From: Escherichia phage W22
Sequence record: PV159336
Reading direction: 5' to 3' (one strand)
DNA length: 64,000 nt
The translations under genes and the position numbers were made by a program. This document shows positions 42,137-62,714 of the stretch, in pieces (position 1 is the first letter of the stretch; every line of letters begins with the position of its first letter). The notes beneath the pieces are model-generated. The model was not told the DNA's origin, did not search any database, and saw only the letters and a program-made list of their open reading frames with translations.

Positions 42137-42646
42137 TTAGCGATAGAATTGATGTTCTTTGTAGCGGTACACCAGAACCATATCTTTTTCCCAGTGTGCT
42201 CTTATTGTAGATTTTTTAAAGTATAATGCTCCTTTTGTAATATCTAATGCAATTCGTAATTCTGGAAAATGGTTATCGAGATAAAGTAGACGTTCTGCTA
42301 TAGCTTTAGCGTCTTTCCACTTATCGTGTTCCATAACGTTGAATGTCTTCGTGTAAGAGAATTGTCCTTTCTGAAACAAAACTTCTTTTATAGTATCAGG
42401 GAAATATGAATCTCTAGCCCTATTCAATACTACATTACCAACAGCAGACATACCGCGCTTTCCTTGATTACGACTTTCTGCATAGATTGCACAAGCTAAT
42501 AGATTTTCTTTACTATCACGCTTTGTACACTTGTGAACTACTTTAGCAGTTTTTACGTTTGCAGCTTCGGCTTGCGCCACAACAGGTGTAAATGTAAAAG
42601 CAGTTAAGGATAGTAACGCAATTGCGACAAAGGTTTTTATTGACAA
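42137..42646 (-). CDS. secreted cell wall hydrolase (SleB/Hydrolase_2-like), candidate endolysin
   Basis: N-terminal signal peptide (FVAIALLSLTAFTFTPVVAQA) and motif AIYAESRNQ...AVGNVVLNR typical of SleB-like hydrolases. Confidence 0.55.
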   Translation of the reverse strand: MSIKTFVAIALLSLTAFTFTPVVAQAEAANVKTAKVVHKCTKRDSKENLLACAIYAESRNQGKRGMSAVGNVVLNRARDSYFPDTIKEVLFQKGQFSYTKTFNVMEHDKWKDAKAIAERLLYLDNHFPELRIALDITKGALYFKKSTIRAHWEKDMVLVYRYKEHQFYR

Positions 42647-43405: not shown

Positions 43406-44002
43406 TTACTCGAACCAATCGTCGCCAGCGCCAAACGCTTTAACTACATCGTAAATGTCAAGCCCAGCTTTACCTACACCATATGCTTTCAGTTTCCATT
43501 CGCTATCTTCTCGCACCAGGGAGGCAACGTGGCAAATGGTGTTACCTGCAAGTTCTGGAGCCAAGAAGTCAAAGTCCAGCAGTTCAACATTACGTTCATC
43601 ATCGAAGATTTTAAGGAAACCTTCGGTAGCGTGACCAAGGCGTTTCTTACCCGTTTCGTCATCAATAGTAATTACGAATGCAATTTCCTGTGCTTCAGCA
43701 GAGATATTATCCAGTGTAACATCAATCTGCTCCATCTGTCCTACACCATCACGAACATCTTCACCTGCAAAAGTAGAACGTTCAGGATCAAATTTCTGCG
43801 CGTAGCACACCAGGTGACGAGGAGACAACAGTTCCGGCAGACCAGATGCATTGTGTCGGCAAATCAGAGCACTAACATCCAGATCCAGTTTTTCGTTAGA
43901 TTTCCAAGAGAATTCCAGACGAATGCGTTTCAGTGCTGGTGCGATCTTTTTCAGAGAAACTTTTTCGCTAGAACCTTTTTTCAGGGAAATTTTCTGAGTC
44001 AT
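43406..44002 (-). CDS. terD: TerD-domain protein (tellurite-resistance TerD/TerZ/TerE family)
   Basis: 198 aa; MTQKISLKKGSSEKVSLKK..., LDLDVSALI, IAFVITIDDE, EWKLKAYGVGKAGL track the TerD domain along its whole length (compared with E. coli TerD from memory). Confidence 0.85.
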   Translation of the reverse strand: MTQKISLKKGSSEKVSLKKIAPALKRIRLEFSWKSNEKLDLDVSALICRHNASGLPELLSPRHLVCYAQKFDPERSTFAGEDVRDGVGQMEQIDVTLDNISAEAQEIAFVITIDDETGKKRLGHATEGFLKIFDDERNVELLDFDFLAPELAGNTICHVASLVREDSEWKLKAYGVGKAGLDIYDVVKAFGAGDDWFE

Positions 44003-44074
44003 AATTTATTATCTCCTTTGTTGTTAATTTACGTTGTCTATTTTACTAATCTTTTCTACAAAGTCAAGCGTTTT

Positions 44075-44869
44075 TTACGCTTTTGCTCCGAATTTTTTAA
44101 CCCACTCACCAAACTCTTCGGATAACAGTTTATCGTAAAGTTCTTCATCAGACAAGGACAAATCTGCAATACCGATAAAATCAACATTATCGTACTCTTT
44201 TGCCAAGTCTTTCAGGAATTTAAAGTTTGCATTACCTACACCAACCATAAACCAGTAAACAGGCGTATTGCGGTGTTTGTTCAGTAAGCTACGTACTGCT
44301 GAAGTATCCATGTTTTCCCCGTCAGTTTGGAAGAAAATCATTGCAGGAGTACGATCAACTTGTGCATCAGTATCTACAACCTGTTCTACAACAGTACGTG
44401 TTACTTCTACAAGTTCTTTTTTACCAGTTAGTTTAGCAAGGAAACCCTTAGCCGGGACTTCTTCATACTCAACGACTTCACGTGTAATATTTTTCATAGG
44501 TACACTACCGAAGTATGTATCATAGATCTCTTGCATTACTGGAGCATAAGCAGTACCACCGTTGATGCAAACATTAGACATGCAAGAGCCGACATAATCA
44601 TCATACACATCAGCCGTTGCAGGAGGCAGTTCAAAAGAAGAACTATTGAAAGCCCACATGTCAATCTGTGCATTATCATCAAACTTCATACCAAACGGCA
44701 GCAGTTTACCTACAAAATCACTAACAGTGCCATCACGATACAGCTCACACATACTACCCGAAATATCTAAGGCGCTACCGACACGAAGAACAACATCGTT
44801 AATCTTTTTCTTACGCAGAGATACAGTAAGAGTTTCTTGACGTTTTTTAAGACTGATTTTATTGGACAT
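44075..44869 (-). CDS. von Willebrand factor A domain protein (TerY/TerF-C-like)
   Basis: MIDAS motif DISGSM, then GGTAY and FFQTDGENMD; N-terminus ISLKKRQETLTVSLRKK echoes TerD first strand. Confidence 0.65.
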   Translation of the reverse strand: MSNKISLKKRQETLTVSLRKKKINDVVLRVGSALDISGSMCELYRDGTVSDFVGKLLPFGMKFDDNAQIDMWAFNSSSFELPPATADVYDDYVGSCMSNVCINGGTAYAPVMQEIYDTYFGSVPMKNITREVVEYEEVPAKGFLAKLTGKKELVEVTRTVVEQVVDTDAQVDRTPAMIFFQTDGENMDTSAVRSLLNKHRNTPVYWFMVGVGNANFKFLKDLAKEYDNVDFIGIADLSLSDEELYDKLLSEEFGEWVKKFGAKA

Positions 44870-44870
44870 A

Positions 44871-45140
44871 TTATTTCTCCTTTCTGAGTGTAATGTTAGT
44901 AACTTCTAAATCCACTTCTACCACTTCTGTATCATATAAAATACAGTTAAGTTGACCTCTTTGTGAACCGTTCAGACACATTGCTTGGTTTGTATTAACT
45001 TTAATAAACACTAAGTTTCTGAACGTATCTAAACCAGAATCTTGATACGCAACATAATATACGAATGTATCACCTGCGTCAAGTTCTCCAAAACATTTAG
45101 GTTCATCTGATTTATCGTCTTTGATATTAAATTTAAGCAC
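44871..45140 (-). CDS. hypothetical protein
   Basis: 89-aa ORF coupled to vWA gene. Confidence 0.35.
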   Translation of the reverse strand: MLKFNIKDDKSDEPKCFGELDAGDTFVYYVAYQDSGLDTFRNLVFIKVNTNQAMCLNGSQRGQLNCILYDTEVVEVDLEVTNITLRKEK

Positions 45141-45696
45141 TGTCTTCTCCTTTACCTGCCATCCAGCCTAAATAGAAAGCCTCTCTGGTGATCTTTTGCA
45201 ACTCGTTTAAAGAGATAGTTACAACTAAATCATCTTCAATTTCTAGCTTTGAGTCTTCTTCTGTCTCAATGCAAGTATTATGCACTTTGTGGTAAGGATT
45301 GTCAACACGTTTAAATTTATTATTTTCAGTGCTGAAGAAGCAATCTGGATCTTCTTCTCCATCACCCCAACCCTGGTTAGGGTCTTCTTCAGATCTTTCT
45401 GTTGGGATCTCACCTGTAAAGTGCTCTTCTAATACCATAGCGATACCATCTCCAAGATCGGAAGAGAACATCAAATTACAAACTTCTTCCCAAGGCATAG
45501 ACCACTTAAATCTTTTACGATTGCCATGTTTATCTTCTTCGTTAGAGAAAACACTACCATAGCTATCATAATTGCCATACATCTCTTCAACAACTTTACC
45601 ACCTTTCAAAAGAAATAGGTAGCAAGGAGAACCATCGAAAGAGGTAGAAAGAGCAGCATTACCAGACTCTTTGCACAAGAAACTAAAACACCCCAT
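45133..45696 (-). CDS. hypothetical acidic protein
   Basis: 187-aa ORF, Cys-containing, very acidic. Confidence 0.35.
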   Translation of the reverse strand: MGCFSFLCKESGNAALSTSFDGSPCYLFLLKGGKVVEEMYGNYDSYGSVFSNEEDKHGNRKRFKWSMPWEEVCNLMFSSDLGDGIAMVLEEHFTGEIPTERSEEDPNQGWGDGEEDPDCFFSTENNKFKRVDNPYHKVHNTCIETEEDSKLEIEDDLVVTISLNELQKITREAFYLGWMAGKGEDSA

Positions 45697-45896: not shown

Positions 45897-46129
45897 TACA
45901 CATTCTCCTCTTTTACCAATTCCATCGTTGAACTATCAAAACCATCTTTAGAAGAATAGGTATAGACAGAACGTAGTTCTCGCAGGACAGTAAATACATT
46001 AGGATCATCTAACCAAGCATCCTGGAGGAGAACATAACGATCTTCATTGTCGTACTGGACAGCGATCATAGAACCAGACAGTTTGTAAATTTTAATATTC
46101 ATAATATATTGCTCCTTAAAGTAGACCAC
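45896..46129 (-). CDS. hypothetical small protein
   Basis: 77-aa ORF overlapping upstream gene end. Confidence 0.3.
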   Translation of the reverse strand: MVYFKEQYIMNIKIYKLSGSMIAVQYDNEDRYVLLQDAWLDDPNVFTVLRELRSVYTYSSKDGFDSSTMELVKEENV

Positions 46130-47219
46130 GTTTAACAGTTTGAATCATACCATCTTCAAGAGATTGCACTTCTTGAATATAATCAATACGAGCAGCACGG
46201 GCTTCAGTGTTGATTCGGTTAGTTTCTTCCAACATTTTAACTAAGTTTTCTTGATCGCGACGTAATGTTTCAATATCCAATACTTGACGATTAGCAAGTT
46301 GCGTAGCTTCAATTTGGTTTTGTGAAGCCAGATCACTACCCATTGCAATAGCAGCATTAAATTCATTCAGTACATTGTTCTGTGTATCGGCTGCTTTCTT
46401 CTGGCGTAGACTTTCAATATACATAGAAAAGTTTGCAGAGTAAGCAGGGATAACATTATTCACAATGTTACGTGCTGATCGCATCAAACTTGCAGATACT
46501 TTCTGCATACTTTGTACACGTGGCCCCATCTGAACACACAGTAAACGCAAGGCTTTCAGGTCTGCAATACGAATTTCAAGCAGATCCATAGTATCACGAG
46601 TACGTTGACGCTCTTCTACTTCATTTTCAGGTAGTGTATTAAGGCGAACTTCTTCTTTTTCATAAGTAGCTGTTAGAAGCTCTATATCCCTGTTTAAGCT
46701 AAGAGCATATTTTGCAATAGCCTCTTCTAAACGTTGCAGATATCGTAAAGAATCTTCTTCTTTTTTCAAGTCTGTTTGGAGTGTCTTTACCAAACCTTCA
46801 ATACGATTATTGATGGTGTCAAATTCACCAAACAAATCTTCTTTCATACCTAATACTTTCTTAACTAGTTTACCTAAGCCTTTAGATTGTTTAATAGAGT
46901 TAGGATCAAGTTGCTTTGCTTGCTTAATAAGTGCAGTTAAACGTTCACTCATTTCATCTCCCTGAGATGAACGCTGGTGTTTAAGCACTTCAGCATTAAG
47001 GTTACGAAGAGTAAGTCCTGCATCAGCACCAACTTGTTCAATCTCTTCACGAGACATTGGAGGCAGCATTTGTACAGGTCGTGCAACAGCAGGGGCATAT
47101 ACAGGGCTTGCATCCATAGCACTTGGAGCAAACAAAGACTTACTTTTTTCTGTTGTTGCCGTGAATACACTCATTTCAGACGGTTTGCTTTTTACGGCAC
47201 TGATAAAAGGACTGGACAT
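46116..47219 (-). CDS. TelA-like (toxic anion resistance) coiled-coil protein, tentative
   Basis: 367 aa, predominantly helical/coiled-coil; call rests largely on size, composition and neighbourhood with TerD/TerC/vWA. Confidence 0.4.
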   Translation of the reverse strand: MSSPFISAVKSKPSEMSVFTATTEKSKSLFAPSAMDASPVYAPAVARPVQMLPPMSREEIEQVGADAGLTLRNLNAEVLKHQRSSQGDEMSERLTALIKQAKQLDPNSIKQSKGLGKLVKKVLGMKEDLFGEFDTINNRIEGLVKTLQTDLKKEEDSLRYLQRLEEAIAKYALSLNRDIELLTATYEKEEVRLNTLPENEVEERQRTRDTMDLLEIRIADLKALRLLCVQMGPRVQSMQKVSASLMRSARNIVNNVIPAYSANFSMYIESLRQKKAADTQNNVLNEFNAAIAMGSDLASQNQIEATQLANRQVLDIETLRRDQENLVKMLEETNRINTEARAARIDYIQEVQSLEDGMIQTVKRGLL

Positions 47220-47287
47220 TCAATTTCCTCCATATTCTTTAGTAGATGGTGATACCTCTGTACCACCATCATAACACAAATTAAGTA

Positions 47288-48139
47288 TTAAACAAACATA
47301 TCTAAATAATTTGTAGTAATAAATGCTCCATCTGCTTCCAGATTAACATAACCAGTAGCATTAGTGGTTAAGAAATCCAGATCGAAGGATTCTTTAACAC
47401 CCCGTACCTCAACACGAGAGATATCGAATACAGGTAGTGTAACAGCCTCTTCGTGCAATACCGTACCTTTGTAGGTTGCCTTAATGATAAACTTGATATT
47501 ACCCGTTCCCGCATCATACAAAACACTTTCAAACCCTTTGAGAGTATACTTATCACCAGAAGTGAAGTGCAAAGTGGCTTTGTTTACAGTACGTTTTTTA
47601 CGAGGAGTTCCTTTCACACGTTTATGATCACTACGTTTTTTGTATTTAGGAGTGAATACAAACGATACACTCTCAAGAAAGGTATCAACATCAAGGATTT
47701 CAATATCCTCTGTTGCAGCAAATTTTGAAGTCGTTGCATCAAAATGCTTTCCCCTGCGATCATACATAAAGATATCAAACCGATCTTCTACATCAAACAA
47801 ATTATGTATCTTAATTTCAGAATGCTTGCACATTGCAGCAACCTTAAACTCTTCAAAACGTGGGTGTTCTACAAGCTCTTCAAGTTTTACACCAAAGACA
47901 GTATATTGTTTCGAAGTTTTTTCTGGCGTTGGCATTACAGAAGCATAATCACCGATTGCGCTTTTAAAGCAAAATTGTTCTTGACCTGTATTTTTACCAA
48001 CGAATTTACAGTATTCGTCATCGTGCATACTTTCTTTGGTAGTACCAACAAACTCAAAACCATCTTTATTCTTCTCAAGAATTTCTTGATTAAAGATCCA
48101 ACCTTCCAGGCGATACACTTTACCAACTTCTAGTTTCAT
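47288..48139 (-). CDS. hypothetical protein
   Basis: 283-aa ORF with Lys/Arg-rich linker (KYKKRSDHKRVKGTPRKKRTVNK). Confidence 0.4.
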   Translation of the reverse strand: MKLEVGKVYRLEGWIFNQEILEKNKDGFEFVGTTKESMHDDEYCKFVGKNTGQEQFCFKSAIGDYASVMPTPEKTSKQYTVFGVKLEELVEHPRFEEFKVAAMCKHSEIKIHNLFDVEDRFDIFMYDRRGKHFDATTSKFAATEDIEILDVDTFLESVSFVFTPKYKKRSDHKRVKGTPRKKRTVNKATLHFTSGDKYTLKGFESVLYDAGTGNIKFIIKATYKGTVLHEEAVTLPVFDISRVEVRGVKESFDLDFLTTNATGYVNLEADGAFITTNYLDMFV

Positions 48140-48174
48140 CTGTTTCTCCTTCTTATTTAATCTGTATTAAATTA

Positions 48175-48780
48175 TTAACGACGACGTGAGCTACTAAAAC
48201 TACGTTTCGACGAAGAATAACTTTTCGAAGACTTACTATAAGAGCTAATAGGGCTTGAGTAAGACTTACGAGCAGAGTAATTACTATTCACTTTTGTTGT
48301 TGATGGGCGTGAATACGTTTGTACACTTTGCTGCTTAATTGTGTTTTGTTTAGTGGTTGTATATGTATTCCCTTGTTTATCATAAAAACTATGCTTTTGT
48401 GTTGTATATGCTTTACTGTTAGTTGTAGGAGCAGCGTTGTTATTAATAATTGTTGTATTGCTACCGCCATCTCTATAACCACCACCGCCACTATTACCAC
48501 TCAACATATGACCAAGAAGCATACCTGTAGCAAACTCACCTACACCAGAAGAACCACTGCCGCCTCCTTGCACAACAACTGTTGAAGGTTGTGCAGGTGC
48601 TGCTTGAACAACTTGAGGTGCAGGTTGATTTACATATTGTTCATCTACCATCTGATTTGGTGTTTGTTGGTAACGTTGGTTTTGTACATTTTCAGAATCA
48701 TCACAACCTACCAGCAATGCACTGCCTAAAACAACTGCAACAATAAAAGATTTAATGTTTTTCATTTGTAACCCTCTCAT
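48175..48780 (-). CDS. putative lipoprotein with low-complexity Q/P- and S-rich regions
   Basis: Signal peptide plus lipobox-like LLVGC; Gly-rich centre; S/K-rich C-terminus ending RRR. Confidence 0.45.
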   Translation of the reverse strand: MRGLQMKNIKSFIVAVVLGSALLVGCDDSENVQNQRYQQTPNQMVDEQYVNQPAPQVVQAAPAQPSTVVVQGGGSGSSGVGEFATGMLLGHMLSGNSGGGGYRDGGSNTTIINNNAAPTTNSKAYTTQKHSFYDKQGNTYTTTKQNTIKQQSVQTYSRPSTTKVNSNYSARKSYSSPISSYSKSSKSYSSSKRSFSSSRRR

Positions 48781-48958
48781 TTAAAGTCTCAACACAATTT
48801 TTAAAATCTCTAGAGAAACAATACATCTGTTCTCCGTTCCTGTTGATAGTAATTGTATGGTTATCAATATATGTTGTCAATATAAAAATCAAACAAAATA
48901 GCCCTAAAGCAAAACAAATATTTTCAAACAGAATCCAAAGAACACGTAAAACCACCAT
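48752..48958 (-). CDS. small membrane protein
   Basis: 68 aa with one long hydrophobic segment (VLWILFENICFALGLFCLIFILTTYI). Confidence 0.3.
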   Translation of the reverse strand: MVVLRVLWILFENICFALGLFCLIFILTTYIDNHTITINRNGEQMYCFSRDFKNCVETLNERVTNEKH

Positions 48959-48972
48959 CAGATCACCTCAAC

Positions 48973-48993
48973 AAAGCCCCCGAAGGGGCTTAA
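48973..48993 (-). terminator. rho-independent terminator after TerC gene
   Basis: AAAGCCCC-CGAA-GGGGCTT hairpin; T-rich on - strand. Confidence 0.5.
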
Positions 48994-48997
48994 TGAA

Positions 48998-49975
48998 TTA
49001 AGCAACAGCCTGGTCTTCTTTTTCAGGGAAGATTAAACTTGCAATAACACCCAGCCCCAGAGTACCTAACACAATATACATACTGATCGTCGGATCAATG
49101 TGTGCTGGCAGGAAACTCACTTTTGCGTGCAGAGTTTCTGCAAACGGGTGATACATCAGTTTTACACCCACAAATACCAGGACTACGATAACTGCTTTCT
49201 CCAGATGAACCAAATATTTCAGTGCAACACTAAGGACAAAGAACAGAGCACGTAGACCTAAAATTGCACACAGCATTGAAGAAAATACAAGCAGAGGTTC
49301 TTGTGTCACTGCAATTACTGCTGGAACAGAGTCTACTGCAAAGATTACGTCAACCATTTCCATTACAAACACACAAACCAATGCAGGAGTTGCTACACGA
49401 ACACCATTTTTGATTGTGAAGAACTTCTCACCATCCATCTGATCAGATACAGGGAACAGCTTACGAACAATGCGAGTAGCCCAGTGTTTAGAGTAATCAA
49501 CTTCTGCGTCATTATCTCCAGCGAATACCATTTTAGCTGCACAGAAAAGGATGACCGCACCGAAGAAGATATTAACATACCAGCCCAAACTCAACAAGTA
49601 AGTACCTACTGCTACAAACACACCTCGGAAGACAATCGCACCTGCAATACCCCAAAGTAGAATCTTGTGTTGCAAGTGTGTACTTTTAATACCAAAACTT
49701 GCGAATACTGCCACAAATACTACTAAGTTATCTACAGAAAGAGATTTCTCCAACACATACCCACTCAAGAACAAGCTCGCAAAATCAGCACCGTGTTGGA
49801 AGTATACAAAACCATAGTAGGCTAATGATACCCCAATCCAGAAAATTGACCAGCCAATTGCAGATTTAAATGAAATTTCTTTGTTTTCCCTGTGTCCAAA
49901 GAAATCAATACAAATCGACAAGACTAAAATACCCACTAAAACAACCACATCAATAATTGGGAAACCCAGTTGCAT
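48998..49975 (-). CDS. terC: TerC-family integral membrane protein
   Basis: 325 aa, multiple TM helices; signature motifs LEKSLSVDN and second-repeat FAVDSVPA characteristic of TerC family. Confidence 0.8.
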   Translation of the reverse strand: MQLGFPIIDVVVLVGILVLSICIDFFGHRENKEISFKSAIGWSIFWIGVSLAYYGFVYFQHGADFASLFLSGYVLEKSLSVDNLVVFVAVFASFGIKSTHLQHKILLWGIAGAIVFRGVFVAVGTYLLSLGWYVNIFFGAVILFCAAKMVFAGDNDAEVDYSKHWATRIVRKLFPVSDQMDGEKFFTIKNGVRVATPALVCVFVMEMVDVIFAVDSVPAVIAVTQEPLLVFSSMLCAILGLRALFFVLSVALKYLVHLEKAVIVVLVFVGVKLMYHPFAETLHAKVSFLPAHIDPTISMYIVLGTLGLGVIASLIFPEKEDQAVA

Positions 49976-49992: not shown

Positions 49993-50012
49993 TGCGGAGG
50001 ACAATCCTCCGC
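49993..50012 (-). other. GC-rich hairpin upstream of TerC start
   Basis: GCGGAGGA-CAAT-CCTCCGC stem-loop between 50053 gene and TerC RBS; no T-tract. Confidence 0.3.
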
Positions 50013-50052
50013 TCTATGTCGTATACTATAAACTGTTTTTAAAGAAAGTCAA

Positions 50053-50301
50053 CTAGTTCAGTTCTGTAATTTTAAGTTTATCTTCTTTGTTAATGATAGG
50101 GAAAGCTACAGCATCACCTACATCATCAATAAAGCAAACAGCAAGACCACCTTCCACTTTGCTAACCTGGCCATTAAAGGCGTGATACGGGGCAGGAACA
50201 ATATCTCCATCTTCAAGGAGAATAGCCTCATAAACCTTACCAACAGTACAATCACGAGTGTTTATAAATTTTTCAAGCACTTCAACATTTACTTTACGCA
50301 T
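50053..50301 (-). CDS. hypothetical small protein
   Basis: 82-aa ORF. Confidence 0.35.
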   Translation of the reverse strand: MRKVNVEVLEKFINTRDCTVGKVYEAILLEDGDIVPAPYHAFNGQVSKVEGGLAVCFIDDVGDAVAFPIINKEDKLKITELN

Positions 50302-50315
50302 ATAAAAATCCTCTC

Positions 50316-50522
50316 TTATTTGTTAGATTGAAAGATACCACGAAGTACCGCAAGAATGAACGTCACACAGACTACACTCCAAAACGTTACAGGAACATGA
50401 TGCCAGTCTAAACCGATAATGTCAATCATATAGTTGTATGCTAAAAGCAGTAGCCAACTAGGGATTAACACAATCAAGAATACAACAATAAAACAACCTA
50501 ATACTGCTAAAACACCTGCCAT
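50316..50522 (-). CDS. small membrane protein
   Basis: 68 aa, two hydrophobic helices. Confidence 0.35.
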   Translation of the reverse strand: MAGVLAVLGCFIVVFLIVLIPSWLLLLAYNYMIDIIGLDWHHVPVTFWSVVCVTFILAVLRGIFQSNK

Positions 50523-50531
50523 ACTTTCTCC

Positions 50532-51248
50532 TTATTTCAGTTTGTAAACAATTACATTTAAACCTTTGTTTACTAGAGTTTCTTCGATCATAAGTTTTAC
50601 AATATTCCAAGAACCTCCAGCCAAACCACAACCAAGCATTGGTAAACCTACAATTTTACCGCCTGAAGATACAACATCGTCTCCCATACTATCTAACGCA
50701 TTGTAGATAGCTTCATAATTCAGGTCACGCTTACCTTCCTCACGACGACTATAACCATATTGTCCATATAAATTATAAATTGTCAAATTGTTTTCTGTAT
50801 ACTTAGTAAACGTACCTAATTTTTTATAATCACCACGTTTAGTGGCACAATCTGCTTTAAACGCACCAGGCCACTTGCTTTTAATTTTTGGTGCAATACC
50901 ACTACCCATAGTGCAAAAACAGTTACAGCAGTGTGCTATAGCGTCTATATCGCCTCTCTCGGCTGCTGCTAAAAGATCACCGTATACCTCAATGATACCT
51001 GCTGGATAACTTGTTACAATTTCATCTTCCCAGTACATTTGCTCTACACCACCGATCAGTGCAAAGTTTTGTGTAATGCGATCATCAATATAATTAAGAC
51101 CTGAAACATACACAGCATATTCATCCTGTGCTGTAATGCCTTGTACACGAATTCTTAAGACACCATCTTTATCTGTTGCTACACGCCCAAAATCTTTTTC
51201 TGTAATATTGGTGATAGGATCTCCGAAAGTCGTCACTTTATTAGACAT
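50532..51248 (-). CDS. macro domain protein (ADP-ribose binding/processing)
   Basis: DAIAHCCNCFCTMGSGIAPKI and VGLPMLGCGLAGGSW resemble macro-domain blocks; start taken at internal ATG 51248 overlapping PRTase stop. Confidence 0.5.
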   Translation of the reverse strand: MSNKVTTFGDPITNITEKDFGRVATDKDGVLRIRVQGITAQDEYAVYVSGLNYIDDRITQNFALIGGVEQMYWEDEIVTSYPAGIIEVYGDLLAAAERGDIDAIAHCCNCFCTMGSGIAPKIKSKWPGAFKADCATKRGDYKKLGTFTKYTENNLTIYNLYGQYGYSRREEGKRDLNYEAIYNALDSMGDDVVSSGGKIVGLPMLGCGLAGGSWNIVKLMIEETLVNKGLNVIVYKLK

Positions 51249-52098
51249 AATAATCCCCTTTAACATTAGATTTGTTGATAATGTTGCTTTCAAAAAATTG
51301 ACGCAGGAAATCAAAGTTCTCTTTGTATTTTTCAATATTATTGTAACCTTCTGCAAGGCAACCAAAGAACAGTTGTTCTACATAATACAAAGGAAGTTGT
51401 GAAAGTGCAATTTTAAAATCAACTTCGCTTTGACTCATTAGATACTTAATAGGACGAACCAAACATTTAGCATCAGTTTCTTGCTTAATCATTTTAATAA
51501 AAGCTGCCAGGTTATTGATATAGTTGAAGTTAAGTGCAGCTTCGGTGTTGGCTTCTGTACCTTCATACTTTGCAAAGTACAGGAAAAACGTATCGTTTTC
51601 AACACCTTCTTTGTCTAAAATTTCAATAAGTTTTTCTTCGTGTGTTCCTGTAATATTAACATCATCAATGAAAATCAGAGTTTTATTACCCCAGAAATCA
51701 CGATTGATAGAGAAAGTGTCACCATCGATCAAAGCCTTACGATCTTCTTTGCTAAGAAATCCATAATCATTGATATAACTCACTTTACGATGAACGATAT
51801 CCCACTCTACTGCTTTACCTCCTTTGATAGAGATTAGGTAGTTGAGGTGATCTACAAAATGTTCAGATAACACTGTAGCTGCATTTTTCACATAGTTATA
51901 TGGAGATGGAATAACAACAAAACTTTCATTTACTAGTCGTTCTTCATATTTAGAAAAGAAACTTTCAGCCAGAATGCGTCCCATTCTTTTTGCTGCCTGG
52001 TTACTACCAAACTTTAGTTTGGAATAATCTGCAATGTTAAATTTTGCTTCCTTCAGGTTAGTAAAAGTATTAGCAAAATGTTGAATTTGATTACGCAT
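51241..52098 (-). CDS. phosphoribosyltransferase (type I PRTase fold) domain protein
   Basis: PRPP-binding motif TLIFIDDVNITGTHEE (hydrophobic-DD-hydrophobic-x-TG); 285 aa with uncharacterised C-terminal half. Confidence 0.55.
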   Translation of the reverse strand: MRNQIQHFANTFTNLKEAKFNIADYSKLKFGSNQAAKRMGRILAESFFSKYEERLVNESFVVIPSPYNYVKNAATVLSEHFVDHLNYLISIKGGKAVEWDIVHRKVSYINDYGFLSKEDRKALIDGDTFSINRDFWGNKTLIFIDDVNITGTHEEKLIEILDKEGVENDTFFLYFAKYEGTEANTEAALNFNYINNLAAFIKMIKQETDAKCLVRPIKYLMSQSEVDFKIALSQLPLYYVEQLFFGCLAEGYNNIEKYKENFDFLRQFFESNIINKSNVKGDYYV

Positions 52099-52747
52099 TA
52101 ATAAGTTCCTCTTTTTTAAGTTTAGCCAACAAGTCTTCTGGATTAATAATATGACAGAACTTCATCCCTATGTCAACAGCTTTTCCATCATAAATCAAAC
52201 TATCTCCAACGTGTAAAATCTCCTCTGGTGCGAGATCAAACGTTACCATTTCATCAAAAGAGAGTTTAAAAAACCTAGGATCTGGTTTACACAAGCAAAA
52301 CTCATCAGAAAAATGCATAAAGTCAAATGGTAATTTTGTTAAGCCAGAATATACAGCTAAGAAACTACCTGGTACAAAATTAGTATTGCTCTTAATACTC
52401 AAAGAATAGATTGAACTTAGCTCTTCCAACTTCTTGCAAAGCTCAGGGTTCAATATTGGAGGATGTTTTATAAACATTGCTAAACAGTCTCTTTTTAACC
52501 CATCTACTTTATCAAGATCAATGTTCAAACGAGTAGAAAGTGTTTCCCAAGCATTCCTAGACGTTCCACAAATGCCTTTTTCTGCTTTTAAATCCAGGAG
52601 AGTTTTTACCTCTTTATATACAGTAGCTGCTTCTGCCTCAGAACAAGAGGCATACTCGGCAATAACCTTGTTGCGTTCTTCTGCATACAAAGGATTAGCA
52701 GTAATAAGAGTATTCCATACATCAAAAGAAATATGCTTAACAGTCAT
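52091..52747 (-). CDS. HAD-superfamily hydrolase
   Basis: Motif I HISFDVWNTLI (DxxxT(L), dehalogenase-like variant) and motif IV HVGDSLIYD; start set at ATG 52747 with GGAGGA RBS. Confidence 0.55.
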   Translation of the reverse strand: MTVKHISFDVWNTLITANPLYAEERNKVIAEYASCSEAEAATVYKEVKTLLDLKAEKGICGTSRNAWETLSTRLNIDLDKVDGLKRDCLAMFIKHPPILNPELCKKLEELSSIYSLSIKSNTNFVPGSFLAVYSGLTKLPFDFMHFSDEFCLCKPDPRFFKLSFDEMVTFDLAPEEILHVGDSLIYDGKAVDIGMKFCHIINPEDLLAKLKKEELINA

Positions 52748-52749
52748 TT

Positions 52750-52905
52750 TTAATCCTCCGTCCAAAAGAATATCATCTGCTTAATTTTATTGATCTCTTG
52801 ATGTAGTAACTTTCCAGCATGTGATTGATCTTTAATATTGATAGCAAGAATTTCAAGCTCCGTTAGTTTTTCTTGGATAGCTTTATATTCATCATCTGTA
52901 AGCAT
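52750..52905 (-). CDS. small hypothetical protein (51 aa), not in ORF track
   Basis: ATG at 52905 to TAA at 52750-52752; stop abuts HAD RBS; coiled-coil-like sequence. Confidence 0.25.
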   Translation of the reverse strand: MLTDDEYKAIQEKLTELEILAINIKDQSHAGKLLHQEINKIKQMIFFWTED

Positions 52906-54806: not shown

Positions 54807-56602
54807 AAATGTTTCTCCCTTTCTAGTACCTCTTGCATTTTACCTTTGTTATAAGGGCGAGAGTTAGGGGCAGAAAGGTATCCTGACACTCTTCTGATCA
54901 CAGATATGGATTCTTCTTCATGATTACCACAACTTGGACACTCGAAGCCTTTAGCTGTTGCCTTAAATTCACCATGAAAACCACATTTGAAACACTGATC
55001 TACAGGTTGGTTCACGCCAAAATAAGGAATTTTATTGTAGGCATAATCTACAAGAGTTTCCAGTGCTTGCAAGTTATTTTTAAGGTTTGGTGTTTCTACA
55101 TAACCTATGTTCCCACCATTACTAATTTGTGCAAAACCTTCCTCATAATCCCACTTTTGGAACGGGGTAGTGTGCATCCATACAGGTTGATGGAAAGAGT
55201 TTGTCAAGTAGTCACGATCAATAGAGCCAGGATAGCGATCATTTAACGCTTTGGCAAATTTATAGCACAAGGATTCTGCTGGTGTTCCATACAAACTAAA
55301 AGCTAAACCAGAACGTTCTTTAAATGTGCAACAGATATCCTTCATATATTGAAGGATGTTTTTACCCATTGCTTTTGGATTGGTGTTATTTGGGTATAAA
55401 ATCTCCATAGCTTCTGCTAAACCTACATAACCGATACTAATAGAGGCATAACCACCTTCAAATAGTTTACCAATCTCTTCATTAGCTTCTAGTCGAGCTA
55501 AAGCACCTTCCATAAACAATGTAGGGTTTTGAGATGCTTTGGTATGTCTAATACGGTTAACACGTAGCATATGTGCCTTATACGCCATCTCCATATGTTG
55601 TTCCAACAGTTCAGTAAATAAGATGCCCTTTTCACGGGACTCTGCTGCAATGATAGGTAAGTTTAAAGAAACTACGCCTAAGTTGAAACGACCATCATAT
55701 TTTTCACCTTGCTCTGTTGCATAGTATGACAAGAAACTACGGCAACCCATGCTTGTGACGCGACCATCTGAAGATCCTGTAACTTCTTTGTTTAAAGGTA
55801 CAGAGATAAAATCAGGATAAATGCGTTCAGCACAACACTCCATTGCCAGTTGCTTCAAATCATAGTTTGGATCGCCAGCTTTCATGTTAACACCATCTTC
55901 CAAGAAGAAGATAACTTTAGGAAACACAGGAGTTACCCTATCTTTTCCTAATCCTTGTTTGTGCACCATTAGGTAGTTTTTAGTGATCATTCTACCAAAA
56001 GCAGAGGTATCCAAACCTAAACTAATTGTTATAAAAGGTGACTGACCATTTACACTCATTAGAGTGTTCACCTGGTAGATTAAAGTTTGCATTGCATCAT
56101 AGACCTGTTTATCTACCATACGCATAGCAATATCATAATCGCCAACATCGGCATATATTTTATTAAAACTTGCTTTAACGTATTGACTAAGCCCAGTATC
56201 AACATGTGCACAAGTTTGTCCACCATATTGGCTAGAGGCTACTGCTTGAATAATTTGAGTTAGGACAGTAGTCGCTACACCGATAGATTTTGGTTTTTCA
56301 ATATGTGCATTACCAATACGGAAACCGTTCTCAAGCATATCTTGGTAATTTACCAGGCAACAATTAGTTAAAGGTGAGAGTAAATAATCTAAATCGTGAA
56401 TGTGACCATACCCACTTTTATGCCATTCTGCTAAATCTTCAGGTAAAATATGGGTCATTGCCATGTGCTTGCTTAGGATACCTGCTAGTAAATCTCGGTG
56501 AGTATTAACAATCATTGCAGGTTTGTTTGCATTTTCACGAGTAAATTCTTCGGATGTTTGTTCGAGGAATCCGATTACATCCTCATATAGTTTTTGGGTC
56601 AT
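54803..56602 (-). CDS. nrdD: anaerobic ribonucleoside-triphosphate reductase (class III)
   Basis: 599 aa; C-terminal Zn ribbon CFKCGFHGE...CPSCG and glycyl-radical motif RVSGYL. Confidence 0.85.
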   Translation of the reverse strand: MTQKLYEDVIGFLEQTSEEFTRENANKPAMIVNTHRDLLAGILSKHMAMTHILPEDLAEWHKSGYGHIHDLDYLLSPLTNCCLVNYQDMLENGFRIGNAHIEKPKSIGVATTVLTQIIQAVASSQYGGQTCAHVDTGLSQYVKASFNKIYADVGDYDIAMRMVDKQVYDAMQTLIYQVNTLMSVNGQSPFITISLGLDTSAFGRMITKNYLMVHKQGLGKDRVTPVFPKVIFFLEDGVNMKAGDPNYDLKQLAMECCAERIYPDFISVPLNKEVTGSSDGRVTSMGCRSFLSYYATEQGEKYDGRFNLGVVSLNLPIIAAESREKGILFTELLEQHMEMAYKAHMLRVNRIRHTKASQNPTLFMEGALARLEANEEIGKLFEGGYASISIGYVGLAEAMEILYPNNTNPKAMGKNILQYMKDICCTFKERSGLAFSLYGTPAESLCYKFAKALNDRYPGSIDRDYLTNSFHQPVWMHTTPFQKWDYEEGFAQISNGGNIGYVETPNLKNNLQALETLVDYAYNKIPYFGVNQPVDQCFKCGFHGEFKATAKGFECPSCGNHEEESISVIRRVSGYLSAPNSRPYNKGKMQEVLEREKHF

Positions 56603-61713: not shown

Positions 61714-62190
61714 TCAACCTCTCTTAATTTGTTTAACAAGCATAGGAACAAAATCTCGTTTTAAAATTTGTTCAATAATATGATCAGGTAGCTGTTGGAA
61801 ATTATAATTAAACGCTACTGTTTCACCTTTAGGTGTTTCTACCCGCACATATAACATGTTGCGAAGTTTATCCACTTGTGCTGTATATTCTAAACCACGT
61901 AATTGATGCATTGCAAACATCAAATCATCAGTTTCAGTTTGGAATCTATCCCTTGTCTGCATCAAGGATAAGGCAAAAGGTAGATTTTCCCTAAGAGCCA
62001 CCTTCTTAGGCACTAGTGAAGGGAAATACTCCCCAATAACTTCCTGTGTAAGCTGAATACACTCTTTTTCAAGCTGGTTTTGTTCCTTGAGTTCACAAAC
62101 ACTTTTTTGTAAAGTGTTAACCTCTTTTTGCAAAGCTGCTAGTTGAGCACTTAACTTTCTTTTTTGATTACGACCGAAACGTTTAGACAT
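61714..62190 (-). CDS. hypothetical coiled-coil protein
   Basis: 158-aa ORF; stop overlaps helicase start. Confidence 0.4.
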   Translation of the reverse strand: MSKRFGRNQKRKLSAQLAALQKEVNTLQKSVCELKEQNQLEKECIQLTQEVIGEYFPSLVPKKVALRENLPFALSLMQTRDRFQTETDDLMFAMHQLRGLEYTAQVDKLRNMLYVRVETPKGETVAFNYNFQQLPDHIIEQILKRDFVPMLVKQIKRG

Positions 62191-62198
62191 ATTTCCCC

Positions 62199-62714
62199 CT
62201 AGTAAAACCCCTTAACAATTTGTATTAACTCGGCACAACGGTTGACCAACTTTTCATCGTACAATACACGTTGTGGCATATGTTGTATAATATACTCCAT
62301 TTGCTCATGCCATGTCCACTTTTCTTTTTTGTCTGGGATAACATCACTAGCACGAGAATTATCTTTTAATGTTTGTATAATCCAATTACTTGGAAAGTGC
62401 TCTCCACCTTTCTTAAATGGTTTATAGTGGCCTAGAGTGAATTGAGAATCCCCTGTTAGAGCACCCAATTTATTTAGATGGATAATCAAACTACGAAACA
62501 CATAATATTCATAGATGTTATCCACCGTATAGCAAGCATAATATTTCAAGATACCCTTATCTCGCGGATACTTACCAACATCCAGATTACACCAGTTGAC
62601 ATTTTCTGGATCATAGTGGTGTTCCTTAAGCCATATTTCTCTTTCATCAAAGTCTGGATATATTACCGCCCTACTTACAGAGTCAACAAGTGGAGATTGA
62701 GCATCAAAAAACAT
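62199..62714 (-). CDS. hypothetical protein
   Basis: 171-aa ORF. Confidence 0.4.
   Translation of the reverse strand: MFFDAQSPLVDSVSRAVIYPDFDEREIWLKEHHYDPENVNWCNLDVGKYPRDKGILKYYACYTVDNIYEYYVFRSLIIHLNKLGALTGDSQFTLGHYKPFKKGGEHFPSNWIIQTLKDNSRASDVIPDKKEKWTWHEQMEYIIQHMPQRVLYDEKLVNRCAELIQIVKGFY

What the first reader, a model, noticed from the sequence alone, without database searches (positions are those of the whole stretch)
46116..49975. TelA-like and TerC proteins flanking a low-complexity lipoprotein and small membrane proteins
Between TelA-like and TerC genes lie a 283-aa unknown protein, a predicted lipoprotein with Gln/Pro-rich and Ser/Lys-rich low-complexity tails (48175..48780) and a single-TM protein (48752..48958). 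Two more small membrane proteins (50053..50522) follow TerC. This suggests an envelope-targeted sub-module; the lipoprotein composition (QQAPQ, SGNSGGGGY, S/K-rich end with RRR) is unusual for a phage.
Basis: partly seen in the sequence, partly recalled or inferred. Interest (0 to 1): 0.5.

Follow-up and report, generated by a model that had tools for sequence, protein, structure and literature searches.

The report
Phage Ter-cluster inner-membrane lipoprotein module
This stretch is the membrane-facing part of an already annotated tellurite-resistance-type (Ter) gene cluster of a phi92-like E. coli phage, and its odd low-complexity lipoprotein belongs to a large, uncharacterised, almost phage-only family rather than being unusual for a phage.

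Summary
The window is a Justusliebigvirus (phi92-like) coliphage, 99% identical to published genomes. The TelA (PF05816, 4e-34) and TerC (PF03741, 1e-38) calls hold. They sit in a full phage Ter cluster: HAD, PRTase_3, Macro, TerC, TelA, vWA-TerF, TerD. The lipoprotein is real. It has lipobox LVGC and an invariant Cys, and Asp-Asp at +2/+3 predicts inner-membrane retention. Its start is more likely 48765 than 48780. The 68-aa ORF is a single-pass membrane protein. Of the "two small membrane proteins" after TerC, only 50316-50522 is one.

The lipoprotein is not unusual for a phage. A profile search finds 246 clusters with one architecture: lipid anchor, Gln/Pro spacer, one glycine-zipper helix (GxxxGxxxS), and a basic Ser-rich tail ending in RR(R/K). 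Most relatives lie in phage contigs without Ter genes, in accessory-gene slots. Within the phi92 clade and an uncultured sister lineage (TelA 46% identical), the trio of small membrane protein, lipoprotein and p283-like protein stays between TerC and TelA. It is not the spanin pair.

My best reading is a portable envelope lipoprotein recruited into an early TerC-TelA operon, acting in envelope protection or superinfection exclusion. The function is inferred, not shown. The 283-aa protein has no recognisable fold.

The parts
52091..52765 (-). HAD-family hydrolase, part of the metabolite-synthesis arm of the Ter cluster
   Evidence: PF00702, E 9e-6. Annotated as hydrolase in phi92 and PHB05.
51241..52098 (-). 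ComF-like phosphoribosyltransferase (PRTase_3), part of the metabolite-synthesis arm of the Ter cluster
   Evidence: PF15610, E 1.1e-41.
50532..51248 (-). Macro-domain protein, annotated as 'phosphatase'. The start at 51248 follows the reference annotations; the mechanical ORF runs on to 51365.
   Evidence: PF01661, E 3.1e-7; annotations.
50316..50522 (-). 68-aa protein with two hydrophobic segments (Phi92_gp184). It is conserved upstream of TerC in all lineages and is called 'holin' in one record only.
   Evidence: Hydropathy; PHROG 16065, function unknown; homologues in phAPEC8 gp051, phiWec179, L014 and L044; annotated as holin only in BME3.
50053..50301 (-). 82-aa acidic soluble protein (Phi92_gp183). 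It is not a membrane protein.
   Evidence: No credible hydrophobic segment, pI 4.7; PHROG 17459, function unknown.
50025..50052 (-). Sigma-70-like promoter, TTGACT-16-TATAGT, upstream of TerC
   Evidence: 10 of 12 matches. It is at the same position as the 'host dependent promoter' annotated in phAPEC8. The scan as a whole is not enriched over shuffles.
49994..50012 (-). Hairpin GCGGAGGATTGTCCTCCGC in the TerC leader, just upstream of the ribosome-binding site
   Evidence: Read directly from the sequence. phAPEC8 has an equivalent hairpin, GCGGGGAGTGGTTCCCCGC. There is no Rfam match.
48998..49975 (-). TerC-family polytopic inner-membrane protein (Phi92_gp182)
   Evidence: PF03741, E 1.2e-38; multiple hydrophobic segments; PHROG 7180.
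48752..48958 (-). 68-aa bitopic membrane protein (Phi92_gp181, 'tm68a'): an N-terminal transmembrane segment followed by about 37 residues with two conserved Cys. Its 3' end overlaps the lipoprotein gene by 14 nt.
   Evidence: Hydropathy. Homologues in phiWec179, phAPEC8 and TSP7 (unannotated there), L014, L044 and L053. Weak sub-threshold DUF6693 hit.
48175..48765 (-). 196-aa lipoprotein (Phi92_gp180). Features in order: signal peptide, lipobox LVGC (Cys21), Asp22-Asp23, Gln/Pro spacer, glycine-zipper helix G81xxxG85xxxS89, TTIINNN, basic Ser-rich tail ending in RRR.
47288..48139 (-). 283-aa protein of unknown fold (Phi92_gp179). It has a basic linker (about residues 163-183) and a beta-rich C-terminal domain that is conserved next to TelA in all lineages.
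   Evidence: PHROGs 27504 and 27550; alignments; hhalign probability 97% to the L053 206-aa protein; AF2 pLDDT 64.5; no fold match.
46116..47219 (-). TelA-family protein (Phi92_gp178)
   Evidence: PF05816, E 4.2e-34; PHROG 5890, 'tellurite resistance'.
44075..44869 (-). vWA domain of the TerF C-terminal type
   Evidence: PF10138, E 1.2e-38.
43406..44002 (-). TerD-domain protein
   Evidence: PF02342, E 5.1e-28.

Best explanation
The region is the membrane-proximal core of a phage-borne Ter (tellurite-resistance-type) cluster in a phi92-like coliphage. TerC, a 68-aa bitopic protein, a lipoprotein, a 283-aa protein and TelA are probably transcribed together from a host-type promoter in front of TerC.

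The lipoprotein is a member of a portable, essentially phage-restricted family. It looks like a 'minimal YgiB': a lipid anchor, a disordered Gln/Pro spacer, one short glycine-zipper helix, and a long polycationic Ser/Tyr-rich tail with a di- or tri-basic C-terminus.

Proposed working:
1. Sec export and lipidation at Cys21.
2. In E. coli, retention in the outer leaflet of the inner membrane because of Asp at +2 and +3.
3. Self-association, or packing against neighbouring membrane helices, through the G81/G85/S89 face.
4. The basic tail reaches into the periplasm and binds anionic envelope material.

The likely net role is to remodel or stabilise the infected cell's envelope. That would mean exclusion of superinfecting phages or colicins, or protection from envelope stress, the same kind of role proposed for phage Ter systems. 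In the phi92 clade the family has been stably recruited next to TerC and TelA.

Shown: the gene identities, the family architecture, its distribution and its gene neighbourhoods. Inferred: localisation, oligomerisation, co-transcription and the biological role.
For: - The window is 99% identical to Justusliebigvirus genomes.
- Pfam gives TelA, TerC, TerD, vWA-TerF, PRTase_3, HAD and Macro.
- The lipobox and Cys are invariant, and DD at +2/+3 is near-invariant in the clade.
- The profile search finds 246 clusters. Over 174 representatives, 90% have a lipobox-like motif, 94% have GxxxGxxx[GSTA], and 88% have a dibasic C-terminus.
- G81 and G85 are invariant across the broad alignment, and S89 is also invariant within the clade.
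- AF2 predicts disorder apart from the signal helix and a helix at residues 74-89.
- The tail has net charge +15.
- Gene neighbourhoods are phage accessory slots:
  - between Q antiterminator and holin;
  - directly after Rz with an embedded Rz1;
  - next to an HTH gene and the tailspike in P22-like contigs;
  - between RNR small subunit and ThyX;
  - between helicase and ligase.
- Only 6 loci were found in 185,579 species genomes; the five with flanking sequence are a plasmid with phage lysis genes (2 loci), a prophage, a ThyX-adjacent site and a phage-like bin.
- The position between TerC and TelA is kept, together with tm68a and the p283 C-terminal domain, down to a lineage with 46% TelA identity.
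- A sigma-70-like promoter precedes TerC at the site annotated as a host promoter in phAPEC8.
- The Aravind group has proposed that phage Ter systems act against superinfecting phages (PMC7824862).
- E. coli YgiB aligns weakly to the family profile over the lipobox, linker and Met-rich Gly helix. In C. rodentium, ygiB is a Cpx envelope-stress gene (bioRxiv 10.1101/2022.08.05.503015).
Against: - No experiment bears on function.
- No curated family (Pfam, NCBIfam, PADLOC) matches the lipoprotein.
- The +2 residue is Asp in only about 41% of family members, so the membrane of residence may differ between hosts.
- The helix is too short and too polar to be a standard transmembrane segment. The glycine-zipper reading rests on a sequence pattern and on conservation, not on a Pfam Gly-zipper hit.
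- The promoter scan is not enriched over shuffled sequence.
- Synteny within one viral clade may reflect descent rather than function.
- phiWec179 keeps the Ter genes without the lipoprotein.
Confidence: 0.45

Rival explanations
1. Obligate Ter subunits. The 68-aa protein, the lipoprotein and p283 would be dedicated adaptor subunits that couple TerC in the membrane to TelA under the membrane. This is the first reader's 'sub-module' in its strong sense, and the lipoprotein would have no function outside the Ter complex.
For: - Conserved order TerC, tm68a, lipoprotein, p283 C-terminal domain, TelA in Justusliebigvirus, Phapecoctavirus, L014 and the distant L053, while other small ORFs in the interval come and go.
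- Overlapping or tightly spaced genes.
- A Band_7/SPFH scaffold gene is inserted in the same interval in L053.
Against: - 25 of 28 IMG/VR loci carrying a family member have no TerC, TelA, TerD or vWA within 10 kb.
- Other Ter-bearing phages (Vibrio PhiImVa-1, Proteus Privateer) have no such lipoprotein near TerC.
- phiWec179 has TerC, tm68a, p283 and TelA but no lipoprotein in the interval.
Confidence: 0.2
2. Lysis function. The overlapped pair of a bitopic membrane protein (48752-48958) and the lipoprotein would be a second, non-canonical spanin-like pair or a lysis-timing regulator. It would work with the secreted SleB-type endolysin 5.5 kb downstream and the two-segment membrane protein that one record calls a holin.
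For: - The gene pair looks formally like an overlapped i-spanin/o-spanin arrangement.
- Family members sit immediately after endolysin-Rz in Mu-like contigs and immediately before holin-endolysin in lambdoid prophages.
- The endolysin carries an N-terminal signal-like segment.
- 50316-50522 is annotated as holin in BME3.
Against: - Asp-Asp at +2/+3 predicts inner-membrane retention, whereas an o-spanin must reach the outer membrane.
- Canonical overlapped spanins of phi92 and phAPEC8 lie elsewhere (phi92 55669-56336; Kongari 2018 supplement).
- In the Mu-like loci the cassette already contains an embedded Rz1-type o-spanin.
- tm68a has only about 37 residues after its membrane segment; an i-spanin must reach across the periplasm.
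- There is no PHROG holin or spanin hit for any of the three small proteins.
- The host-type promoter suggests early expression.
Confidence: 0.12
3. Metal handling. The Met/His-containing helix (M82, H86, M87; family consensus TGM..GHMMSGGG) would form a periplasmic metal-binding site. It would receive or buffer the cation moved by TerC, by analogy with TerC proteins that metalate exported enzymes.
For: - GH[ML][ML] is present in 110 of 174 representatives.
- The gene lies one small overlapping ORF downstream of TerC.
- TerC-family proteins act in Mn metalation during secretion (PMC10550928) and in Zn/tellurite resistance (PMC12054061).
Against: - Most family members are not linked to TerC.
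- The His is not invariant.
- No known metal-binding family matches.
- The invariant residues are the Gly/Ser zipper positions, not the Met or His positions.
Confidence: 0.07
4. Artefact. The low-complexity ORF would not be a real gene, or would be a decaying one.
For: Strongly biased composition. Pfam, NCBIfam and PADLOC have no matching family; PHROGs lists it only as 'unknown function'.
Against: - 95-100% conserved in 54 phage genomes.
- Homologues at 40-60% identity keep the Cys, DD, the zipper residues and the RRR end.
- The broad family has one consistent architecture.
- A ribosome-binding site precedes the ATG at 48765.
Confidence: 0.02

Closest known systems
Ter (tellurite-resistance-type) stress-response systems, including phage-borne versions (Anantharaman, Iyer & Aravind 2012; Iyer et al. 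2021, PMC7824862)
   Same: TerC, TelA, TerD, a TerF-type vWA domain, a PRTase and a HAD phosphoesterase are clustered on one strand. This is the component set described for relatively complete phage Ter systems.
   Different: - No TerB or ATP-grasp was detected among the ORFs scanned.
- A Macro-domain protein is present.
- The TerC-TelA interval carries a clade-specific trio (bitopic 68-aa protein, lipoprotein, p283) that is absent from the two other Ter-bearing phages examined.
YgiB/YjfM (DUF1190) enterobacterial lipoproteins
   Same: - Both have a lipoprotein signal, a Gln/Ala/Pro-rich linker, a Met-rich Gly-containing helix (YgiB MPLMAGYMMGRLMGGG; phage TGMLLGHMLSG) and a Ser/Thr-rich tail.
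- E. coli YgiB scores 20 bits against the phage-family profile.
- One DUF1190 protein (P0107) matched the profile search through its C-terminal half.
- A 'YgiB-like lipoprotein' of unknown role was noted in phage Moon (PMC4319498).
   Different: - The phage protein lacks the Cys-rich DUF1190 domain and does not hit PF06693.
- It ends in RRR, whereas YgiB ends in ...SMGG.
- There is no adjacent YgiC-type ATP-grasp ligase gene in this phage.
- The similarity is weak and affected by composition (bias 13 bits).
Glycine-zipper lipoproteins (SlyB/Pcp/OsmB type; Pfam Gly-zipper_Omp, Gly-zipper_YMGG, Rick_17kDa_Anti)
   Same: Small lipoproteins in which a GxxxGxxx(G/S/T) motif forms the conserved core.
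   Different: No Pfam Gly-zipper model matches. There is only one short helix rather than a hairpin, and the predicted location in E. coli is the inner membrane.
Two-component spanins (Rz/Rz1)
   Same: An overlapped gene pair encoding an N-terminally anchored inner-membrane protein and a lipoprotein. Relatives lie next to lysis cassettes.
   Different: An inner-membrane retention signal, no coiled-coil partner, and true spanins elsewhere in the genome. Relatives sit beside complete Rz/Rz1 pairs rather than replacing them.
Phage 'moron' lipoproteins (lambda Bor, T5 Llp, phi80/N15 Cor)
   Same: Phage-encoded lipoproteins carried in accessory slots. The slot after Rz/Rz1 is the position of bor in lambda, and the slot between Q and the holin is the position of the stx cargo; both statements are my own knowledge. 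Roles in exclusion or host-surface change are the precedent for the function proposed here.
   Different: No sequence relationship was detected: Pfam gave no hit at all. The architecture is different, disordered with a single helix.

Membership tests
Ter system (phage-borne) | TerC-family integral membrane protein | tested here: met
   PF03741, E 1.2e-38, 133 bits against a cut-off of 27.8.
Ter system (phage-borne) | TelA-family protein | tested here: met
   PF05816, E 4.2e-34, 118.5 bits against a cut-off of 30, covering profile positions 13-330 of 332.
Ter system (phage-borne) | TerD-domain protein and TerF-type vWA protein in the same cluster | tested here: met
   PF02342, E 5.1e-28, and PF10138, E 1.2e-38, at 43406-44869.
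Ter system (phage-borne) | Linked PRTase and HAD phosphoesterase (nucleoside-like metabolite arm) | tested here: met
   PF15610, E 1.1e-41, and PF00702, E 9e-6, at 51241-52765.
Ter system (phage-borne) | TerB ligand-binding protein | tested here: not met
   No TerB hit in any ORF scanned between 42.1 and 54.3 kb. TerB is present in other phage Ter clusters. It is not required in all described variants.
Ter system (phage-borne) | Confers tellurite, phage or colicin resistance | not testable with these tools
   Requires experiments.
Bacterial lipoprotein (Lgt/LspA substrate) | Basic n-region, hydrophobic h-region and lipobox [LVI][ASTVI][GAS]C near residue 20 | tested here: met
   MKNIK / SFIVAVVLGSALL / LVGC, with Cys21. 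It is the only such ORF in the window. The Cys is invariant in relatives.
Bacterial lipoprotein (Lgt/LspA substrate) | Prediction by a dedicated tool, or demonstrated lipidation | not testable with these tools
   No LipoP or SignalP here. The phi92 record cites SignalP 3.0 with probability 0.844 for the orthologue.
Inner-membrane-retained lipoprotein (Lol avoidance) | Asp at +2 with Asp/Glu/Gln/Asn at +3 (the E. coli rule; my own knowledge) | tested here: met
   C21-D22-D23. D22 is invariant or nearly so and D23 nearly invariant in the Stephanstirmvirinae-type alignments; phAPEC8 has E-D. Localisation itself was not tested.
o-spanin / i-spanin pair | Outer-membrane lipoprotein (no Lol-avoidance signal) paired with an inner-membrane protein whose periplasmic domain spans the periplasm | tested here: not met
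   DD at +2/+3. The partner has only about 37 residues after its membrane segment. There is no PHROG spanin hit. The spanins of phi92 and phAPEC8 were identified elsewhere.
Pfam glycine-zipper lipoprotein families | Match to PF13488, PF13441, PF13436 or PF05433 | tested here: not met
   No Pfam family at E <= 0.01. The GxxxGxxxS pattern is present and conserved.
DUF1190 (YgiB/YjfM) | Cys-rich DUF1190 domain (PF06693) | tested here: not met
   The phage protein has no PF06693 hit. Only the linker, helix and tail region resembles YgiB.
Holin (for 50316-50522) | Match to a holin family, adjacency to the endolysin, charged C-terminal tail | tested here: inconclusive
   Two hydrophobic segments and 68 aa, but PHROG 16065 is 'unknown function'. 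The gene is about 7.7 kb from the endolysin, and its C-terminus is short.

The most novel reading that the evidence does not exclude
The gp180 family would define a previously undescribed class of phage-encoded, intrinsically disordered glycine-zipper lipoproteins ('mini-YgiB'). These would oligomerise at the periplasmic face of a membrane and use a polycationic tail to tether or shield the envelope. In the phi92 clade, the bitopic gp181, the lipoprotein gp180 and gp179 would be the missing membrane adaptors through which TelA and TerC act. That would give a tractable entry point to the long-unresolved mechanism of Ter systems.
Probability: 0.2. Interest if true: 0.6.

Novelty: new variant of a known kind. 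Interest (0 to 1): 0.35.

Why it matters
Ter clusters are widespread and are linked to tellurite, colicin and phage resistance. How TelA and TerC act at the membrane is still unknown, and neither family has a sequence-detectable solved structure. A compact phage version with a small, conserved set of envelope partners is a convenient genetic system for that question.

Separately, the lipoprotein belongs to a large phage family that has no curated description. It repeatedly occupies accessory-gene slots, which marks it as a candidate superinfection-exclusion or envelope-modifying factor. That is relevant to phage-phage competition and to the behaviour of therapeutic phi92-like phages.

The genes themselves are already in public genomes, and the Ter annotation is not new.

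Tried and rejected
- **Spanin hypothesis.** Rejected for three reasons: the Kongari 2018 supplement places the phi92 and phAPEC8 spanins elsewhere, the lipoprotein carries DD at +2/+3, and the Mu-like relatives have an embedded Rz1.
- **AF2 of the lipoprotein.** It gave only a disordered chain with one helix, so no fold search was run on it.
- **Defence-system and RNA models.** PADLOC gave no hits. Rfam, including the Mn riboswitch often found upstream of terC genes, gave none in the window.
- **Promoter/terminator scan.** Counts equalled shuffled expectation. Only the site that coincides with the phAPEC8 annotation was used.
- **tblastn of the lipoprotein against phage genomes.** It returned only hits at 95% identity or above and missed the clear phAPEC8 homologue, probably because of low-complexity filtering. 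Distribution was therefore judged from profile searches instead.
- **The search for related loci with the broad alignment.** It failed for lack of a conserved stretch. A narrower alignment was used, whose strict pattern undercounts the family.
- **Literature.** Anantharaman et al. 2012 was not held. A search for phage lipoprotein exclusion papers gave nothing relevant.
- **Structures of TelA and TerC.** Neither has a sequence-detectable solved structure.

Full report
**Identity of the window.** A 4.6-kb query across the finding matches 74 phage records. The best are Escherichia phages vB_EcoM_PHB05 and ECGD1, at 99.2% identity over the full length, and the taxonomy is Stephanstirmvirinae, genus Justusliebigvirus (phi92-like). 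The genes of the finding correspond to phi92 as follows:
- TelA = gp178
- 283-aa protein = gp179
- lipoprotein = gp180
- 68-aa membrane protein = gp181
- TerC = gp182
- 82-aa protein = gp183
- second 68-aa membrane protein = gp184

All are on the minus strand.

**Check of the observation.** Pfam confirms TelA (PF05816, 4.2e-34) and TerC (PF03741, 1.2e-38) well above the curated cut-offs. The 283-aa ORF has no Pfam match.

The lipoprotein ORF is real.
The ATG at 48765 has a GAGAGGG ribosome-binding site and is the annotated start in three reference genomes, giving 196 aa.
- The N-terminus reads MKNIK-SFIVAVVLGSALL-LVGC. That is a basic n-region, a hydrophobic core and a canonical lipobox with Cys21.
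- A strict regular expression for this arrangement finds exactly one ORF in all six frames of the 64-kb window.
- The Cys is invariant in all alignments of relatives.
- The composition described is present. The linker (residues 22-62) is 37% Gln+Pro, the core (63-110) is 31% Gly, and the tail (111-196) is 41% Ser+Thr with net charge +15 and ends in SSSRRR.

The ORF at 48752-48958 has one strong N-terminal hydrophobic segment.

One claim fails. The ORF at 50053-50301 is an acidic soluble protein (pI 4.7), not a membrane protein. The ORF at 50316-50522 does have two hydrophobic segments.

**Wider gene context.** The finding lies inside a larger cluster, all on one strand. In transcription order (from high to low coordinates) it contains:
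- AAA ATPase
- HAD hydrolase
- ComF-like PRTase (PF15610, 1e-41)
- Macro domain
- gp184
- gp183
- TerC
- gp181
- gp180
- gp179
- TelA
- four small ORFs
- TerF-type vWA (PF10138, 1e-38)
- TerD (PF02342, 5e-28)
- a 200-aa ORF
- a SleB-type endolysin with an N-terminal signal-like segment

This is the component list of the Ter systems described by the Aravind group. They reported such systems in jumbo and 'certain other related smaller' tailed phages and proposed a role in competition with superinfecting phages (PMC7824862). A Klebsiella phage paper makes a similar point (PMC8386662). The Ter assignment is therefore correct but not new.

A sigma-70-like promoter (TTGACT-16-TATAGT) followed by a hairpin lies just upstream of TerC. 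It sits where phAPEC8 has an annotated 'host dependent promoter' and an equivalent hairpin. This suggests early transcription of TerC through TelA. The promoter scan overall is no better than shuffled sequence, so I treat this as an inference. No Rfam family, including the Mn riboswitch common upstream of terC genes, matches.

**What the lipoprotein is.** A search of 5.8 billion proteins finds 29 relatives, most at 40-60% identity. Where long contigs are available they are about 140-155 kb. These relatives keep Cys21, Asp22-Asp23, a VxVQ strand, the segment SGVGDFATGMILGHMMSGGG, TTIINNN, and a Ser/Tyr/Lys/Arg tail ending in SSSRRR.

A profile of these sequences, searched against 1.84 billion cluster representatives, finds 246 proteins at E <= 1e-3. 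They are small (median 171 aa among those examined) and share one architecture. Over 174 representatives:
- 90% have a lipobox-like motif.
- 94% have GxxxGxxx[G/S/T/A].
- 88% end in two or more basic residues.
- Asp is the commonest +2 residue, at 41%.

In the broad alignment the only invariant positions are the lipidated Cys and G81 and G85. Within the clade S89 is also invariant. Together these form a GxxxGxxxS glycine-zipper pattern.

AlphaFold2 with 29 sequences predicts disorder throughout, except for the signal helix and a helix at residues 74-89.

No Pfam, NCBIfam or PADLOC family matches. PHROGs 21570, 32479 and 13808 cover the family as 'unknown function'.

The nearest cellular relatives are DUF1190 lipoproteins. 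One DUF1190 protein matched the profile through its C-terminal half. E. coli YgiB aligns weakly (20 bits, with a high composition bias) over the lipobox, the linker, the helix MPLMAGYMMGRLMGGG and the tail. The phage proteins lack the Cys-rich DUF1190 domain. In C. rodentium, ygiB is a Cpx envelope-stress gene. A 'YgiB-like lipoprotein' of unknown role has been noted in a T4-like phage.

**Is the lipoprotein part of the Ter system?** Two lines of evidence pull in different directions.

*Evidence against a strict link.* I recovered 28 IMG/VR loci with a strict core pattern. Only three carry TerC, TelA, TerD or vWA within 10 kb, and all three are Stephanstirmvirinae-type. The other neighbourhoods are:
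- Lambdoid prophages: Q antiterminator, then the lipoprotein, then holin and endolysin.
- Mu-like elements: SAR endolysin, then an Rz-like i-spanin with an embedded Rz1-type o-spanin, then the lipoprotein.
- P22-like contigs: ERF, SSB and an HTH gene, then the lipoprotein, next to the tailspike.
- Larger phage contigs, including 98-216-kb ones: between the RNR small subunit and ThyX.
- Smaller phage contigs, about 25-48 kb: between a DnaB-like helicase and DNA ligase.

A scan of one genome from each of 185,579 species found only six loci. The five with flanking sequence are a plasmid carrying phage lysis genes (two loci), a prophage lysis cassette, a ThyX-adjacent site and a phage-like bin.

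Other Ter-bearing phages (Vibrio PhiImVa-1, Proteus Privateer) have no family member near TerC. phiWec179, a separate Stephanstirmvirinae lineage, keeps TerC, gp181, a full-length gp179 homologue and TelA but has no lipoprotein in the interval.

*Evidence for a link within the phi92 clade.*
- phAPEC8 and TSP7 have the lipoprotein (gp054, annotated with a wrong upstream start).
- They also have an unannotated gp181 homologue overlapping it in another frame, and a shorter gp179 homologue.
- L014 has the gp181 homologue, the lipoprotein and the gp179 C-terminal domain, flanked by TerC and TelA.
- An uncultured sister lineage, L053, has TelA 46%, TerD 52% and vWA 62% identical, with a different TerC subtype. 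No isolate in the phage collection is closer than 48%.
- L053 shows TerC, then a 57-aa gp181 homologue (BLASTP 7e-8), then a Band_7/SPFH protein, then the lipoprotein (C-D-D), then a 206-aa gp179 homologue (hhalign 97%, 1e-10), then TelA.

Other small ORFs in the interval are lineage-specific, for example gp053 and the SprT-like gp056 of phAPEC8 (PF10263).

The family is therefore portable and not intrinsically a Ter component. In this clade it has been kept, together with two partners, between TerC and TelA over considerable divergence.

**Is it a spanin?** The overlapped pair of a bitopic protein and a lipoprotein invites that reading. I reject it for the following reasons:
- The curated spanin survey places the overlapped i-/o-spanin pair of phi92 at 55669-56336 of its genome, and that of phAPEC8 at 62013-62641 (PMC6139136 supplement). 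By my estimate from the phi92 match coordinates, the phi92 pair lies outside this window.
- The Mu-like relatives sit next to a complete Rz/embedded-Rz1 pair rather than replacing it.
- Asp at +2 and +3 is the E. coli signal for inner-membrane retention (established rule, my own knowledge).
- gp181 has only about 37 residues beyond its membrane segment.
- No PHROG lysis family matches.

**Mechanism.** I commit to the following, at about 0.45 confidence.
1. gp180 is exported, lipidated at Cys21 and retained on the periplasmic face of the inner membrane.
2. Its single glycine-zipper helix mediates self-association or packing against neighbouring membrane helices. The bitopic gp181, whose two conserved Cys suggest a periplasmic disulfide-bonded tail, and TerC are the obvious candidates.
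3. Its long polycationic tail contacts anionic envelope material.

Together with TelA, TerC and the TerD/vWA proteins, it would condition the envelope of the infected cell early in infection. The most plausible purposes are to exclude competitors or to withstand envelope stress. The accessory slots the family occupies in other phages are those typically used by exclusion and surface-modifying genes.

Gene identities, architecture, distribution and synteny are shown. Localisation, oligomerisation, co-transcription and biological role are inferred.

The rivals, with my estimates, are obligate Ter subunit (0.2), lysis function (0.12), periplasmic metal partner of TerC (0.07) and artefact (0.02).

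**Verdict.** It is wrong that the lipoprotein is atypical for phages. The cluster and all its genes are already in public annotations. What is not described is the family-level nature of the lipoprotein and the conserved trio next to TelA. I rate this a new variant of a known kind, of moderate interest.

Noticed in passing
L003 (phAPEC8, NC_020079) 9365-9600 and 9477-9989; the same in L004 (TSP7): An unannotated ORF encodes a homologue of the 68-aa membrane protein gp181 (49% identity). It overlaps the lipoprotein gene in another frame. The annotated start of phAPEC8 gp054 adds a spurious 25-residue N-terminal extension upstream of the real signal peptide (MKKLALILIGCIFLTAC).
   Followed up: yes
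window 42137-42646 (-): The SleB-type endolysin (PF07486) starts at a TTG and carries an N-terminal hydrophobic signal-like or SAR-like segment (MSIKTFVAIALLSLTAFTFTPVVAQAEA). It lies at the end of the Ter cluster, far from the spanins. No holin is evident nearby. How lysis is triggered in this phage group looks unresolved.
   Followed up: partly
L053 4332-5213 (Logan SRR10097270 contig): In an uncultured sister lineage, a Band_7/SPFH membrane-scaffold gene is inserted between TerC and the lipoprotein. The TerC there is of a different subtype (PF03741 plus DUF475). A Band_7 gene also lies about 8 kb from the lipoprotein homologue in L009.
   Followed up: partly
L006 816-1935 (JGI 3300081410 contig): A family member is immediately followed by a phiEco32-like COOH-NH2 ligase (PF14395). 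This recalls E. coli ygiB followed by ygiC, which RefSeq annotates as a peptide--spermidine ligase. It raises the possibility that the conserved tail or C-terminus is enzymatically modified in some lineages. This is a single case.
   Followed up: no
window 49994-50052 (-); L003 7921-7985: A host-type promoter and a GC-rich hairpin sit in the short TerC leader, directly upstream of the ribosome-binding site. Both are conserved in position between Justusliebigvirus and phAPEC8 although the sequences differ. They may regulate translation or transcript stability.
   Followed up: partly
Phage collection records MG065639, MG065645, MG065656, MG065689 (and MG065650): Records labelled 'Campylobacter phage' with host Campylobacter jejuni are 98.5% identical to this E. 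coli phage region (MG065650 instead matches Phapecoctavirus-type sequences). The host labels look doubtful.
   Followed up: no
window 45133-45696 (-): A 187-aa protein beginning MGCFSFLCKESG is well conserved across Justusliebigvirus, phAPEC8 and L044 (about 79% identity over the first 121 residues in L044). It lies between TelA and the vWA gene and has no family match. It may be another conserved component of the cluster.
   Followed up: no
window 50532-51365 (-): The mechanical ORF for the Macro-domain protein begins at a TTG 117 nt upstream of the annotated ATG (51248) and would overlap the PRTase gene. The shorter annotated form (238 aa) is more likely. phAPEC8 has a much shorter Macro protein (157 aa), so the N-terminal 80-90 residues are an added domain in this genus.
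   Followed up: partly
L051 6508-6717: In one P22-like contig the lipoprotein homologue is followed by a gene with a Sequestin domain (PF21825). This places the family in an accessory region of that phage.
   Followed up: no
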